4,828 nt of DNA from a virus (IMGVR_UViG_2695420822_000011); one strand, 5' to 3'; shown: positions 129-4,828, counted from the stretch's first letter. A program made the numbers and translations. The notes: generated by a model from the sequence alone, not told the origin.

Positions 129-414
129 NNNNNNNNNNNNNNNNNNNNNNNNNNNNNNNNNNNNNNNNNNNNNNNNNNNNNNNNNNNNNNNNNNNNNNNN
201 NNNNNNNNNNNNNNNNNNNNNNNNNNNNNNNNNNNNNNNNNNNNNNNNNNNNNNNNNNNNNNNNNNNNNNNNNNNNNNNNNNNNNNNNNNNNNNNNNNNN
301 NNNNNNNNNNNNNNNNNNNNNNNNNNNNNNNNNNNNNNNNNNNNNNNNNNNNNNNNNNNNNNNNNNNNNNNNNNNNNNNNNNNNNNNNNNNNNNNNNNNN
401 NNNNNNNNNNNNNN
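129..414. other. Assembly gap (286 consecutive N)
   Basis: Uninterrupted run of n characters. The ORFs in the track that span it (76..453 +, 87..446 -) are artefacts of translating N. Confidence 0.99.
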
Positions 415-478: not shown

Positions 479-1561
479 ATGAAAAAATTAACAGTGGCAA
501 TTTCTGCTGTAGCTGCATCAGTACTGATGGCGATGTCTGCTCAGGCAGCTGAAATTTATAATAAAGACAGTAACAAGCTGGATCTGTACGGGAAAGTTAA
601 TGCTAAGCACTACTTCTCCTCTAATGATGCAGATGATGGTGATACTACTTATGCCCGTCTTGGCTTCAAAGGTGAAACCCAAATCAACGATCAACTGACT
701 GGTTTCGGTCAGTGGGAATATGAATTCAAAGGCAACCGCGCTGAATCTCAAGGTTCCTCCAAAGATAAAACCCGTCTTGCCTTCGCTGGCCTGAAATTCG
801 GTGACTACGGCTCCATCGATTACGGCCGTAACTACGGTGTAGCATACGACATCGGTGCGTGGACTGACGTCCTGCCAGAATTCGGTGGTGACACTTGGAC
901 TCAAACAGATGTGTTCATGACTGGTCGCACCACTGGTGTTGCAACTTATCGTAACAACGACTTCTTTGGTCTGGTTGATGGTCTGAACTTTGCTGCTCAG
1001 TATCAGGGTAAAAATGACCGCACTGACGTAACTGAAGCTAATGGTGATGGTTTCGGTTTCTCCACTACTTATGAGTATGAAGGATTCGGTGTAGGTGCAA
1101 CCTATGCTAAATCTGACCGCACTAATAATCAGGTTATCTACGGTAACAACAGCCTGAATGCATCTGGTCAAAATGCTGAAGTATGGGCAGCTGGTCTGAA
1201 ATATGATGCGAACAACATCTATCTGGCTACCACCTATTCTGAAACCCAGAACATGACTGTTTTTGGTAATAACCATATTGCCAACAAAGCACAAAACTTC
1301 GAAGTAGTTGCACAATATCAGTTCGACTTCGGTCTGCGTCCGTCCGTTGCTTACCTGCAATCTAAAGGAAAAGACTTGGGTGCGTGGGGTGATCAGGACC
1401 TGGTTGAATATATTGATGTAGGTGCAACCTATTACTTCAACAAAAATATGTCCACTTTTGTTGATTACAAAATCAACCTGATTGATAAGAGCGATTTCAC
1501 GAAAGCATCTGGCGTTGCTACCGATGATATCGTTGCTGTAGGTATGGTTTACCAGTTCTAA
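479..1561 (+). CDS. nmpC: Outer-membrane general porin, OmpC/OmpF/PhoE family, prophage-encoded NmpC / Lc type (360 aa precursor)
   Basis: Translation [23 protein letters not shown]|[16 protein letters not shown]... has a typical Sec signal peptide (cleavage after AQA), a mature N-terminus as in OmpC/NmpC, aromatic/Gly-rich beta-strand pattern and a C-terminal ...VGMVYQF ending in Phe. The track ORF begins upstream at 419, but the ATG at 479 gives the canonical signal peptide. Position next to the Q antiterminator gene matches the DLP12 nmpC and phage PA-2 lc arrangement. Confidence 0.93.
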
Positions 1562-3005: not shown

Positions 3006-3169
3006 GATTCCTCCTTGCTGCCAGTCGCAACCATTTTTTTATCAACCAGGCTAGCGGTATATCCGAGCAGTGTTGGTATTTCGGATGGCTTCAGCTCAGG
3101 CTTACGCTTACGACGATTTGATACTCTGTAGATGTGCCCGTTCATGACACGAATAAGCGGTGTAGCCAT
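2993..3169 (-). CDS. ninE: NinE-family small protein (58 aa as encoded here; C-terminus possibly frameshifted)
   Basis: Hand-translated minus-strand [61 protein letters not shown]. The start overlaps the ybcN stop (TAATG). A 7-nt A run (plus-strand T run 3034..3040) precedes the C-terminal 13 codons. Confidence 0.7.
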   Translation of the reverse strand: MATPLIRVMNGHIYRVSNRRKRKPELKPSEIPTLLGYTASLVDKKMVATGSKEESWLI

Positions 3170-3624
3170 TACGCCTCCTGCTTATCGCGCAGCTGCTGGT
3201 ATTCACAGCTCTGCGGAATTGTCAGGTGGCAGCCGATATTCATCGCCCAGGCTTCGACTTTGCACAGGAAGATGTACATCTCGCCGGTTTCCAGCTCTGA
3301 CGTATGGCGGAGGGATTGGACGGTGGTGACCTCGCCGGACACGACATCTACACGGTCTTTGCTTTCGTAGCCGAGATAGGTGTGCTTCATCGCGTCTTTG
3401 ACCCACTCAGGCGTAGCGAAGGTCTTGCCGCGGGCGATGAGATATTCGCTGATCTCCGTGTACCACATGTGGCTGAGCGCGTTCTGCGACAGGCTGCGCT
3501 TCTCGCGCCACGGCTTAACCTGCAGGCGTAAGCATTGCCCGGCATCCAGCAATGGCTGAATCTGCTGGCCGATGGCCGCGAAGTTACCGCGATGGAGTTT
3601 GATGCCGTCTACTGGCAGAGTCAT
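3169..3624 (-). CDS. ybcN: NinB-family protein (DLP12 YbcN-like, 151 aa; reported DNA base-flipping / recombination-associated)
   Basis: Translation MTLPVDGIKLHRGNFAAIGQQ...REKRSLSQNALSHMWY... contains the RSLxQN motif shared with lambda NinB. Strong SD (GGGAGG, plus-strand 3629..3634) lies 4 nt upstream of the ATG at 3622..3624. Confidence 0.85.
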   Translation of the reverse strand: MTLPVDGIKLHRGNFAAIGQQIQPLLDAGQCLRLQVKPWREKRSLSQNALSHMWYTEISEYLIARGKTFATPEWVKDAMKHTYLGYESKDRVDVVSGEVTTVQSLRHTSELETGEMYIFLCKVEAWAMNIGCHLTIPQSCEYQQLRDKQEA

Positions 3625-3711: not shown

Positions 3712-3735
3712 CGCATTTAAGTCCCCTTAAATGCG
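3712..3735. repeat. Inverted repeat CGCATTTAA-gtcccc-TTAAATGCG
   Basis: Perfect 9-bp arms with a 6-nt loop read directly, in the divergent intergenic region between ybcN and the AT-rich cassette. No flanking U-tract. Confidence 0.45.
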
Positions 3736-3822
3736 CAGAAGTCACCGGAGTTGTTCAGGCTCCGATGAGAGGATTATGGCGGATTGATTACGATAAATCA
3801 AAACTATCTTGAAGCCAAAACA

Positions 3823-3851
3823 GTGATCTTCGCTTTAAAAACCTTGTATAC
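3823..3851 (+). promoter_or_regulatory. Candidate sigma70 promoter for the AT-rich cassette (-10 TATACT at 3846..3851; weak -35 GTGATC at 3823..3828)
   Basis: Hexamer match only: the -10 has 5/6 matches to TATAAT, the -35 is poor. Sits about 38 nt upstream of the ATG at 3889. Confidence 0.25.
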
Positions 3852-3888
3852 TTTCACCTAATCACAGCCAGAACTATGGATCTAACCA

Positions 3889-4266
3889 ATGACCAACAAA
3901 GAAAACAAAGATAAATATATTAACAAGTTCAAGAAAGAGCTTTCAAAATATATACAACCAACTGCTGGAGTGGACATTCAATTATTTAACTCTAAGGATG
4001 GTGGTGGTGTAATTAAAGCCACTTTGAATAGAAGTGGAAAAAGAAAATCATCTATTGCTGGTAATTTTACTAAATTAGGTGAGGCAATTACCTCGAGTGG
4101 GCAGAGGGTTTTTGGTGGTGATCTATCAAATGTGAATTTTTACGGAACAAATACGATTTTTGATGGAGATACAATATTTTTAATTAAATCACCTGATTCA
4201 GAGGAGTGGTCATCACAAAAAGCTTCCAAAGACGTAGAGGGCATCGTATTTGGAGGGAAAAAATGA
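3889..4266 (+). CDS. Hypothetical protein, 125 aa, Lys/Gly-rich, no transmembrane segment, no recognisable domain
   Basis: Long ORF in very AT-rich DNA, translating MTNKENKDKYINKFKKELSKYIQ...GGDLSNVNFYGTNTIFDGDTIFLIKSPDSEEW...GIVFGGKK. Its stop overlaps the next gene's start (ATGA). Weak RBS. Confidence 0.6.
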   Translation: MTNKENKDKYINKFKKELSKYIQPTAGVDIQLFNSKDGGGVIKATLNRSGKRKSSIAGNFTKLGEAITSSGQRVFGGDLSNVNFYGTNTIFDGDTIFLIKSPDSEEWSSQKASKDVEGIVFGGKK

Positions 4267-4691
4267 TTAACATTACTACTAAGGATGGCACTCAAGTCAG
4301 TGGTGAAGTAAGAGATCTAGTAATTCTTCTTGAAACTGATGGAAAAACGGTGTCTGATTATTTGCAGCCAATCCCTCCCAAAAAAGATACACACTGGAGC
4401 ATGATTTTCATTCCGGTAGCAATTTATATACTACTTAATCTTGTATACATTATTGCTCACCCATTATTTCCTGAAAAATATCTAAAAACATCAACATCTA
4501 TATTTCTATTCATTTCCTTCATATTAAGTGCAATAGTAGCATATTTTGTTTTCCATAAGCATAAATCTGCCACTCTATCCATATGCAGCTTAGTGTTCTT
4601 AGTGTTAATTGTAGGTGCTAACGTAGGGTTTATCAGTTACAGCGACCTAACACAAAAAGCGACGCAAAAATTAGATAGTTTGTCTAAATAA
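4263..4691 (+). CDS. Hypothetical small membrane protein, 142 aa: about 45-aa soluble N-terminal domain followed by three predicted transmembrane helices
   Basis: ATG at 4263 is preceded by a strong SD (GGAGGG, 4252..4257, 5-nt spacing) and overlaps the upstream stop. Hydrophobic stretches at roughly residues 45-69, 77-97 and 103-125 (WSMIFIPVAIYILLNLVYIIAHPLF; SIFLFISFILSAIVAYFVF; LSICSLVFLVLIVGANVGFI) with short K/H-rich loops. The track's upstream extension to 4206 is probably not translated. Confidence 0.65.
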   Translation: MINITTKDGTQVSGEVRDLVILLETDGKTVSDYLQPIPPKKDTHWSMIFIPVAIYILLNLVYIIAHPLFPEKYLKTSTSIFLFISFILSAIVAYFVFHKHKSATLSICSLVFLVLIVGANVGFISYSDLTQKATQKLDSLSK

Positions 4692-4698
4692 TTATGTT

Positions 4699-4719
4699 GC
4701 CATGCGAAGTATGCATGGC
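4699..4719 (+). repeat. Inverted repeat GCCATGC-gaagtat-GCATGGC just after the cassette stop (possible terminator stem)
   Basis: Perfect 7-bp arms read directly, 8 nt after the TAA at 4689..4691. No clean U-tract follows, so a terminator call is weak. Confidence 0.35.
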
Positions 4720-4798
4720 TGCATGTCTGCCTTCCATTTAAAATGGGCTAAGACCTATAACCCTAAATATTATTCTTTATTATCTTCTTTACCACTTC

Positions 4799-4828
4799 GG
4801 TGATGCTGCCAACTTACTGATTTAGTGT
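4799..4828 (+). mobile_element. IS1 left terminus (5' end of a second IS1 copy, in the same orientation as the one at 1..40); 23-bp terminal repeat 4799..4821
   Basis: GGTGATGCTGCCAACTTACTGATTTAGTGT matches the IS1 left end upstream of insA as I remember it. The window ends inside the element. Confidence 0.85.

What the first reader, a model, noticed from the sequence alone, without database searches (positions are those of the whole stretch)
3780..4798. AT-rich, translationally coupled two-gene cassette (soluble 125-aa protein plus three-helix membrane protein) inserted divergently next to ybcN: candidate undescribed moron / defence or exclusion module
Seen in sequence: base composition drops sharply at about 3780 relative to the flanking prophage genes. 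Two + strand ORFs (3889..4266 and 4263..4691) overlap by ATGA, and the second has a strong SD. The first protein is Lys/Gly-rich and soluble; the second has a short N-terminal domain plus three hydrophobic helices. I recognise neither product. In K-12 DLP12, as I remember it, the region upstream of ybcN holds different genes (ylcH, ybcM, ybcL), so this looks like a strain-specific insertion at a known moron position of lambdoid phages. Pairing a small soluble protein with a small membrane protein is the architecture of many prophage-encoded abortive-infection or superinfection-exclusion systems and of toxin/immunity pairs; the function here is pure inference.
Basis: partly seen in the sequence, partly recalled or inferred. 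Interest (0 to 1): 0.78.

Follow-up and report, generated by a model that had tools for sequence, protein, structure and literature searches.

The report
Uncharacterised prophage two-gene membrane module
A low-GC pair of coupled genes (a small soluble protein plus a three-helix membrane protein) carried as cargo in a lambda-like prophage belongs to an unnamed gene pair found across many bacterial phyla; it is most likely a phage-exclusion or toxin-like conflict module, but no function has been tested.

Summary
Window 3889-4266 (A, 125 aa, soluble, basic) and 4263-4691 (B, 142 aa, three TM helices) are real genes. They overlap by ATGA, GGAGGG precedes B, GC is 0.34 against 0.52-0.58 in the neighbours, and dN/dS is 0.07-0.19. 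They sit antisense to the early-right operon, between replication gene P (cut here by IS1) and ybcN/ninB. K-12 DLP12 holds emrE-ybcK-ybcL-ybcM-ylcH in that slot and lambda holds ren.

New here: the pair is not a strain oddity. An exhaustive profile search places A in a family of 111 clusters (50% identity level). In every fetched locus with sequence downstream (58 of 58, at least seven phyla), A is followed at once by a protein with a short N-terminal domain and three TM helices, usually with a 4-nt overlap.

Neither protein matches Pfam, NCBIfam, PADLOC, PDB sequences, lambda RexA/RexB/Ren or any annotated PHROG. Fold searches were uninformative. Contexts are prophages, a conjugative element, toxin-antitoxin islets and defence-gene neighbourhoods, but also housekeeping genes. 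One relative fuses the A domain to an HNH nuclease.

Best reading (about 0.45): a cytoplasmic sensor or regulator (A) controlling a membrane-damaging effector (B), Rex-like in logic but unrelated in sequence. The function is inference.

The parts
3847..3852 (+). Candidate -10 box (TATACT) of the cassette's own promoter, about 37 nt upstream of A's ATG. The -35 is weak.
   Evidence: The TATACT/TATGAT/TATAAT block stays aligned in six prophage contexts whose surrounding sequence has diverged. The consensus scanner did not call it, so its function is inferred.
3889..4266 (+). Gene A: 125-aa soluble basic protein, member of phrog_18061 (unknown function). Broad-family near-invariant residues are Y10, G39, F84, G86, T87, K100, W107 and D115.
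4252..4257 (+). Shine-Dalgarno GGAGGG for gene B, lying inside the 3' end of gene A.
   Evidence: Read directly from the sequence.
4263..4691 (+). Gene B: 142-aa membrane protein, member of phrog_16940 (unknown function). It has an N-terminal soluble segment of about 40 aa and three TM helices (about 45-66, 78-97, 104-126). Its start overlaps A's stop (ATGA).
4693..4725 (.). Conserved stem-loop just after B's stop codon (core GCCATGC-N7-GCATGGC at 4699-4719). Candidate terminator or 3' end-stabilising hairpin of the cassette, with no canonical U-tract.
   Evidence: The stem is invariant and the loop variable in five different prophage contexts. Free energy is -16.6 kcal/mol, z -2.8 on the plus strand and -2.6 on the minus strand.
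3712..3764 (.). Two strong hairpins (3712-3735 and 3746-3764) in the ybcN-A intergenic region. They lie at or near the left edge of the mobile unit; their role is unknown.
   Evidence: z -4.0 on the minus strand. The second hairpin is kept with a different loop in Enterobacter locus L028, which has another left flank.

Best explanation
Shown: the cassette is a self-contained two-gene accessory module (a moron) carried in the replication-to-nin cargo slot of lambdoid prophages. It belongs to a widespread, strictly paired, unnamed A/B gene family.

Inferred: it is expressed in the lysogen from its own promoter, antisense to the phage early-right operon, and A and B are made in fixed proportion by translational coupling. 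B sits in the inner membrane with its conserved N-terminal domain of about 35-40 aa and its conserved (H/Q)xR(F/H)K loop in the cytoplasm. A is a cytoplasmic sensor or regulator that docks on B. When an infecting phage supplies or removes a cue, A releases or activates B, B oligomerises and permeabilises or depolarises the membrane, and the infection aborts or is excluded. The logic is Rex-like but the proteins are unrelated.

The steps from 'expressed in the lysogen' onward are inference only.
For: Real, selected genes:
- dN/dS is 0.07-0.19.

Module integrity:
- Of 61 A-family genes in the fetched loci, 56 are followed directly by a B-family HMM hit.
- Two more are followed by a divergent 3-TM protein, and the remaining three end at a contig edge.
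- The 4-nt overlap is kept in 13 of 16 cross-phylum loci.
- B homology: hhalign E 2e-5 over 105 columns, with shared motifs.

Moron features:
- GC is 0.34 against 0.52-0.58 in the neighbours.
- A -10 box and a 3' hairpin travel with the cassette.
- The cassette is identical between different flanks: lambda O/P, DnaB-type or DnaC-type replication genes; NinB, DUF1367 or DinI; different Q types.
- The slot holds other cargo in K-12 and lambda.

Sporadic and mobile:
- 46 of 5,426 complete E. coli genomes.
- Absent from the species-representative genomes in the A1 pattern scan.
- Decayed copies exist.

Conflict-system neighbourhoods:
- Prophages (L033/L034, L059, L061).
- An ICE beside Peptidase_C14 and DUF4238.
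- A toxin-antitoxin islet with BrnA, Gp49/HigB-HTH and Hypoth_Ymh.
- A DrmD-like SNF2 helicase plus a Lon_C protein, a Schlafen + NB-ARC STAND protein, and full-length PDC-M49A.
- Colicin-like, DndB and HNH genes in the same slot.

Effector swap:
- In P0104 the A domain is fused to an HNH nuclease (PF01844, E 1e-12).

Topology:
- K+R counts are low in loop 1 (0.45) and higher in loop 2 (1.73) and before TM1 (2.41).
Against: - No experiment exists, and no homology to any known defence, toxin-antitoxin, holin or Rex protein was found.
- PADLOC 2023 has no model for either protein.
- Many loci lie beside housekeeping genes such as ValRS, ThiC or an MCP, and no statistical enrichment for defence neighbours was computed.
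- The HNH fusion is a single case on a 1.6-kb contig.
- No isolated phage or plasmid carries the pair.
- The C-terminal tail of B is also K-rich, so the topology call is soft.
- The A model has low confidence (pLDDT 58.5), and no fold or active site could be assigned.
- The promoter's -35 is poor, and the hairpin lacks a U-tract.
Confidence: 0.45

Rival explanations
1. Toxin-antitoxin (addiction) module. B is a small membrane toxin and A is its labile soluble antitoxin. The pair stabilises the prophage or island, or causes post-segregational killing, and has no primary anti-phage role.
For: - A two-gene, translationally coupled, sporadically distributed module on mobile elements.
- Neighbours in some loci are toxin-antitoxin genes: BrnA, Gp49/HigB-HTH and an Xre-MbcA/ParS antitoxin.
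- The upstream-soluble, downstream-effector order matches the usual antitoxin-toxin layout (sequence).
Against: - A has no recognisable DNA-binding or antitoxin domain, and B matches no toxin family.
- In E. coli CV839-06 gene A is cut to 49 aa by IS1 while B stays intact, and in L054 A is frameshifted with B intact. This is unexpected if A were an essential antidote, although polarity could silence B.
- Both proteins are equally and strongly conserved.
Confidence: 0.17
2. Non-abortive superinfection exclusion at the membrane. The A/B complex at the inner membrane blocks DNA entry or an early membrane step of incoming phages, in the manner of P22 SieA, T4 Imm/Sp or HK97 gp15, without killing the cell.
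For: - A prophage cargo position, antisense to the lytic operon.
- A small inner-membrane protein with a cytoplasmic partner.
- Prophage-only distribution in Enterobacteriaceae.
Against: - Many family members lie in non-prophage chromosomal sites of free-living marine and soil bacteria.
- Injection blockers are usually host- and phage-specific and not conserved across phyla.
- The HNH fusion suggests an intracellular effector logic.
- No homology to known Sie proteins in Pfam, PHROGs or PADLOC.
Confidence: 0.13
3. An accessory physiological function unrelated to conflict, for example a small membrane-stress, signalling or transport adaptor pair that happens to be mobile.
For: - Heterogeneous neighbourhoods include housekeeping genes: ThiC, aminoacyl-tRNA synthetases, a pantothenate kinase, an MCP.
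- No hit to any defence model.
- Wide phyletic spread with strong purifying selection.
- An automatic JGI label 'VIT1/CCC1 family' on B.
Against: - The VIT1 label is not supported by Pfam.
- The family is rare and patchy (111 clusters among 1.84 billion representatives), it differs in base composition from its host locus, and it shows decayed copies. These are traits of mobile conflict genes, not of physiology genes.
- There are no conserved neighbours other than B.
Confidence: 0.2

Closest known systems
Phage lambda RexA/RexB and RexAB-type systems (for example P. putida PP_5643/5644, PMC12894663)
   Same: A prophage-borne two-gene operon with a cytoplasmic protein plus a small multi-pass inner-membrane protein (RexB 144 aa, B 142 aa). 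The proposed logic is a soluble sensor activating a membrane-damaging effector, and the genes are expressed from the prophage.
   Different: - No sequence relationship: hhalign probability 0.04% for A against RexA and 2.2% for B against RexB.
- B has 3 TM helices, not 4.
- The location is between the replication genes and nin, not next to cI.
Mycobacteriophage two-component prophage defences (Sbash gp30/gp31; PMC6426596 title and abstract. The details of gp31 as a multi-pass membrane protein, and the similar Butters gp30/31 pair, are from my own knowledge)
   Same: A lysogen-expressed pair of one cytoplasmic and one small membrane protein that defends against heterotypic phages; Rex-like in architecture without homology.
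   Different: Different phylum and no detectable homology (nothing in the PHROGs, Pfam or PADLOC scans links them). Not compared directly here.
Lambdoid 'morons' (independent promoter-gene-terminator cargo units with deviant GC; concept from the HK97/HK022 comparisons, from my own knowledge) and the ren-ninB cargo slot
   Same: Low GC, own putative promoter and 3' hairpin, inserted between genes that are adjacent in relatives, antisense to the lytic operon.
   Different: 'Moron' describes the mode of carriage, not the function. Promoter and terminator activity are untested.
Defence systems with small TM effectors in PADLOC (for example the Rousset 'Hydrolase-3TM', Kiwa KwaA, CBASS/Pycsar TM effectors)
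   Same: A small multi-helix membrane protein paired with a soluble partner on a mobile element.
   Different: No PADLOC model matches A, B or any of 74 A-family members at a meaningful level.
phrog_18061 and phrog_16940
   Same: Full-length matches (E 9e-85 and 2e-96). All 74 diverse A-family members hit phrog_18061.
   Different: Both PHROGs are annotated 'unknown function', so membership adds no functional information.

Membership tests
phrog_18061 (A) / phrog_16940 (B) | Significant full-length match to the family HMM | tested here: met
   E 9.3e-85 (1-125 of 125) and 2.3e-96 (1-142 of 142). 74 of 74 broad-family members hit phrog_18061.
Lambda RexAB-type exclusion system | The soluble component is homologous to RexA or has the RexA fold | tested here: not met
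Lambda RexAB-type exclusion system | The membrane component is RexB-like with four TM helices | tested here: not met
   B has three TM helices in all family members. hhalign against RexB gives probability 2.2%.
Lambda RexAB-type exclusion system | Located in the immunity region beside the cI repressor and co-transcribed with it | tested here: not met
   The cassette lies between the replication genes and the nin region, far from the repressor (compare lambda).
Lambda RexAB-type exclusion system | Phage exclusion with membrane depolarisation | not testable with these tools
   Needs phage challenge and membrane-potential assays.
Lambdoid moron | Base composition deviates from the flanking phage genes | tested here: met
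   GC 0.34 against 0.52-0.58.
Lambdoid moron | Present or absent between genes that are adjacent, or separated by other cargo, in related phages | tested here: met
   The same cassette occurs between different flanks. K-12 and lambda carry other genes in the slot. Only 46 of 5,426 E. coli genomes carry it.
Lambdoid moron | Own promoter and terminator, expressed from the repressed prophage | tested here: inconclusive
   There is a conserved -10-like box and a conserved 3' hairpin, but the -35 is weak, there is no U-tract, and the scanner made no call. Expression was not testable.
Known anti-phage defence systems (PADLOC-DB v2.0.0) | Match to a component HMM of a described or candidate system | tested here: not met
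   No hits for A or B. Only scattered chance-level hits (E 0.002 or worse) among 74 family members.
Type II toxin-antitoxin | Recognisable toxin and/or antitoxin (DNA-binding) domains | tested here: not met
   No Pfam or NCBIfam domain in A. Only sub-threshold compositional hits for B.
Type II toxin-antitoxin | Toxicity of one gene neutralised by the other | not testable with these tools
   Needs expression assays. Natural A-disrupted, B-intact alleles exist but are uninformative because of possible polarity.
Class I (three-TM) holins | Match to a holin family, and a location in the lysis cassette with an endolysin | tested here: not met
   No holin Pfam or PHROG hit. The prophages have their own essD/holin-lysozyme cassettes elsewhere.

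The most novel reading that the evidence does not exclude
The A/B pair is the enterobacterial branch of a previously undescribed, phylum-spanning two-gene anti-phage system. A small cytoplasmic sensor with a new fold gates a dedicated three-helix membrane effector, and an HNH nuclease occasionally replaces that effector. The system is carried by prophages, ICEs and small islets.
Probability: 0.35. Interest if true: 0.7.

Novelty: new variant of a known kind. Interest (0 to 1): 0.58.

Why it matters
If the pair is a working exclusion or abortive-infection module, three things would follow.

- It would add a compact (about 0.8 kb) and widely distributed system to the bacterial immune repertoire, and one that current annotation tools miss entirely (no Pfam, NCBIfam or PADLOC model).
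- It would give a function to two 'unknown' PHROGs.
- It would mark the replication-nin junction of lambdoid prophages as a cargo and defence slot worth mining. In this data the same slot also holds emrE/ybcK-M, ren, colicin-like, DndB and HNH genes.

The strict A-B pairing over 20-30% sequence identity gives a clean system for studying how a small soluble protein controls a minimal membrane effector.

If instead it is a toxin-antitoxin or physiological module, it is still a conserved unnamed family that deserves a name. That outcome would be much less surprising.

Tried and rejected
Family and structure searches that gave nothing:
- Pfam, NCBIfam, PADLOC and PHROGs on both proteins, and on 74 A-family members: nothing beyond the two unannotated PHROGs.
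- PDB sequence profile search: only chance hits, E 0.02 or worse.
- The structure predictions were run on the shallow enterobacterial alignments before the deep family was found, so the models are weak (A pLDDT 58.5, B 67.7).
- Foldseek of A against BFVD: no hit at E 0.001 or better.
- The afdb50 library was not available.

Locus searches:
- The search for related loci with A1 in species-representative genomes found no relative.
- A3 and A4 were too divergent for pattern generation. A6 worked.
- blastn and tblastn against 50,697 phage records and 72,556 plasmids: no match for A, P0142 or P0036.

Literature:
- No paper mentions WP_000182282, WP_000608370 or the PHROG ids.
- The accessions are not in the DefensePredictor supplements.
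- Brenes & Laub 2025 is not held in the library, so prior description there cannot be excluded.

Readings rejected:
- Membership of RexAB, or a relationship to Ren.
- The JGI label 'VIT1/CCC1 transporter' for B (no Pfam support).
- The hit P0013 (a pentapeptide-repeat chimera) and P0130 (1,251 aa, repeated weak matches), treated as artefacts.
- The 161-aa GTG-start version of B. The ATG at 4263 with its Shine-Dalgarno is the conserved start.

Full report
**1. What is in the window**

The window is a DLP12-like lambdoid prophage segment. Its features, in order:
- an N-masked run at 129-414;
- an intact ompC/nmpC-like porin;
- on the minus strand, quuD (Q), ylcG, rusA, ybcO, ninE and ybcN (3169-3624);
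- a 264-bp intergenic region;
- gene A (3889-4266, +) and gene B (4263-4691, +);
- the last 29 nt of a lambda-P-like replication gene on the minus strand (from 4770);
- an IS1 end at 4799-4828. This is an exact 30-nt match to the terminus of an annotated IS1A.

**2. Checking the observation**

Every sequence statement holds.
- GC is 0.341 and 0.336 in A and B, against 0.52-0.58 in rusA, ybcO and ybcN.
- A's TGA overlaps B's ATG (ATGA, 4263-4266), and GGAGGG lies 5 nt upstream of B's start.
- A is Lys/Gly-rich with pI 9.5 and has no hydrophobic segment.
- B has three hydropathy peaks. Its model has an N-terminal beta-hairpin plus helix, then three long helices.
Lambda carries ren between P and ninB.
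- The genes are real: pairwise dN/dS between enterobacterial variants is 0.07-0.19 with near-saturated synonymous sites.

**3. The cassette as a mobile unit**

- In complete E. coli genomes the cassette is present at 80% coverage or more in 46 of 5,426, always as 'hypothetical protein x2' next to 'replication protein P'.
- The exact proteins occur on at least 1,000 contigs of E. coli, Shigella sonnei and Enterobacter. Every source calls them hypothetical.
- Word-indexed homology searches found only 13 and 17 clusters, all Enterobacteriaceae and all 63% identical or more.
- In Klebsiella, Enterobacter and other hosts, the A(122-125 aa)-B(142 aa) pair sits in the same slot: downstream of the replication module, upstream of the nin genes, and antisense to them.
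- The flanks themselves differ. Replication genes are lambda O/P, DnaB-type or DnaC/IstB-type. The left neighbour is NinB, DUF1367 or DinI. The Q or antiterminator is of different types.
- In one Klebsiella-group locus the slot also holds a colicin-like gene with an immunity-like gene, and DndB plus HNH.
- Flank alignments show that a -10-like box (TATACT, 3847-3852) stays with the cassette while the surroundings diverge. The same is true of a hairpin right after B's stop, with an invariant stem GCCATGC/GCATGGC and a variable loop. The hairpin is stable (-16.6 kcal/mol, z -2.8) but lacks a U-tract.
- This is the anatomy of a lambdoid moron, although promoter and terminator activity remain untested.

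**4. The main new result: a phylum-spanning paired family**

- An exhaustive HMMER search with the A profile against 1.84 billion representatives found 111 clusters at E 0.001 or better (30 at E 1e-10 or better). Almost all are 120-135 aa and match over their full length.
- The 74-sequence alignment shows 20-35% identity to the window protein. The near-invariant residues are Y10, G39, F84, G86, T87, K100, W107 and D115. There is a recurring YINNFRR...Q.AFGGNL.GF.F.GTN...LIKD..EW motif set.
- All 74 sequences hit phrog_18061.
- Loci were recovered from Synechococcus, Nitrospira, Horticoccus (Verrucomicrobiota), Cellulophaga, Algibacter, Robertkochia and Lentimicrobium (Bacteroidota), Syntrophaceae, an Acidiferrales MAG, Photobacterium, Neptuniibacter, Nitrosomonas, Thiohalobacter and others. 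Marine and other metagenomes added more.
- In all of them the A gene is followed at once, usually with a 4-nt overlap, by a 123-135-aa protein. That protein has an 'MK.G..EGTPEE(I/V)K....G(L)...Y...P' N-terminus and three TM helices.
- Tally: of 61 A-family genes in all fetched loci, 56 are followed by a B-family HMM hit and 3 end at a contig edge. The other 2 (long A variants) are followed by divergent proteins with exactly three TM helices.
- The enterobacterial and distant B proteins are homologous (hhalign E 2e-5 over 105 columns). Shared positions include a W at the start of TM1, 'IP' in TM1, 'FL.G' and W in TM2, an (H/Q)xR(F/H)K loop after TM2, and a P after TM3.
- Decayed copies exist. 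A is frameshifted in L054, B is truncated or frameshifted in L053, L015 and L007, and A is split by IS1 in E. coli CV839-06.

**5. What could not be assigned**

- Neither protein, nor any of the 74 relatives, matches Pfam, NCBIfam or PADLOC at a meaningful level.
- The PDB sequence profile search is empty.
- B finds generic helical bundles.
- Lambda RexA, RexB and Ren are unrelated to the A and B profiles.
- No isolated phage or plasmid record encodes a relative.
- No paper in the held library mentions the accessions or the PHROG ids. They are not in the DefensePredictor supplements. The Brenes & Laub prophage screen could not be read.

**6. Context evidence on function**

Mobile or conflict contexts recur:
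- lambdoid prophages in Enterobacteriaceae;
- another prophage, where the pair lies between the integrase/replication genes and the lysis genes (L033/L034);
- a phage-like element (L059);
- viral contigs (L061/L062);
- an ICE beside a caspase-like peptidase and DUF4238 (L057);
- a toxin-antitoxin islet (L037);
- a Nitrospira locus between a Lon_C protein and a DrmD-like SNF2 helicase, an Algibacter locus next to a Schlafen-AlbA_2 + NB-ARC protein, and a Syntrophaceae locus next to a full-length PDC-M49A.

Three integrases and two OLD/AbiL-type ATPases appear among the 126 neighbouring ORFs.

However, other loci abut ValRS, ThiC, an MCP and similar genes, and I did not compute an enrichment statistic. 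One relative (P0104, 447 aa) fuses the A domain to an HNH nuclease, which looks like the effector swaps typical of sensor-effector immune modules. It is a single case without context.

**7. Mechanism**

- Shown: the module is real, selected, mobile and strictly paired. A is soluble, and B is a three-helix membrane protein with a conserved N-terminal domain.
- Inferred: B has N-in topology (few K/R in loop 1, more in loop 2 and before TM1), A and B interact, and B is the effector.
- My preferred model (about 0.45) is a Rex-like but non-homologous sensor plus membrane-effector exclusion or abortive-infection module, expressed from the prophage.
- Rivals: a membrane-toxin/antitoxin addiction pair (0.17), a non-abortive injection block (0.13), and a non-conflict accessory function (0.20).

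**8. Novelty and score**

- By architecture and carriage this is a known kind of thing: a prophage moron encoding a soluble protein plus a small membrane protein.
- By sequence and predicted structure it belongs to no described family, and its strict pairing across phyla has not, to my knowledge or in the searchable literature, been described.
- I rate it 'new variant of a known kind', with interest 0.58. It is a well-defined, cheaply testable candidate, not yet a surprise. Candidate defence pairs are now common, and the functional evidence here is circumstantial.

Noticed in passing
window 4799-4828 (and 4770-4798): An exact IS1 terminal repeat begins at 4799 and truncates the lambda-P-like replication gene, leaving only its last 29 nt. 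No complete E. coli genome shares this junction, so the window probably comes from Shigella or a draft genome, and the prophage is likely defective.
   Followed up: partly
L002 6340-7110 (E. coli CV839-06): An independent IS1 insertion inside gene A leaves a 49-aa stub, with gene B intact downstream. This is a natural A-minus, B-plus allele.
   Followed up: partly
window 129-414: A run of 286 N (masked sequence) lies just upstream of the porin gene. The two long 'ORFs' listed across it are artefacts.
   Followed up: no
window 479-1561: The ompC/nmpC-like porin moron is intact here, whereas K-12 nmpC is split by IS5 (L063 10530-12826).
   Followed up: no
window 3712-3764: Two strong adjacent hairpins (GCATTTAAG-TCCC-CTTAAATGC and CGGAG...CTCCG; z -4.0 on the minus strand) lie between ybcN and gene A. 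The second is kept with a different loop in an Enterobacter prophage that has another left flank. Possibly nin-region terminator or processing signals.
   Followed up: partly
L001 13527-15175: An ImmA/IrrE metallopeptidase plus DUF4411 gene pair sits directly beside the prophage XRE repressor. This is another two-gene cargo unit of unclear role. iss/bor lies at L001 3711-4004.
   Followed up: no
L021 5665-7348 and 9118-10971: The same replication-nin slot also holds a colicin-like 377-aa gene with a Colicin_im-like gene, and a DndB + HNH pair. The slot therefore behaves as a multi-cargo hotspot.
   Followed up: no
L025 13685-14446: A KilA-N + BstA_C protein (BstA-type abortive-infection defence) lies in the immunity region of a Klebsiella-group prophage that also carries the A/B pair.
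   Followed up: no
L055/L056 246-1589 (protein P0104): A 447-aa protein with an N-terminal A-family domain, a central HNH nuclease (PF01844, E 1e-12) and an unassigned C-terminal domain of about 200 aa. The contigs are too short to show neighbours.
   Followed up: partly
L059 258-1895: A 545-aa protein with a GHKL/HATPase-like motif (…DNGCGM…) lies immediately upstream of a long (243-aa) A variant and its 3-TM partner, in a phage-like element.
   Followed up: no
L057 4990-5760 and 9756-10640: A Peptidase_C14 (caspase-like) gene and a DUF4238 gene flank a long A variant and its 3-TM partner, inside a conjugative element (TrwC, TraG).
   Followed up: no
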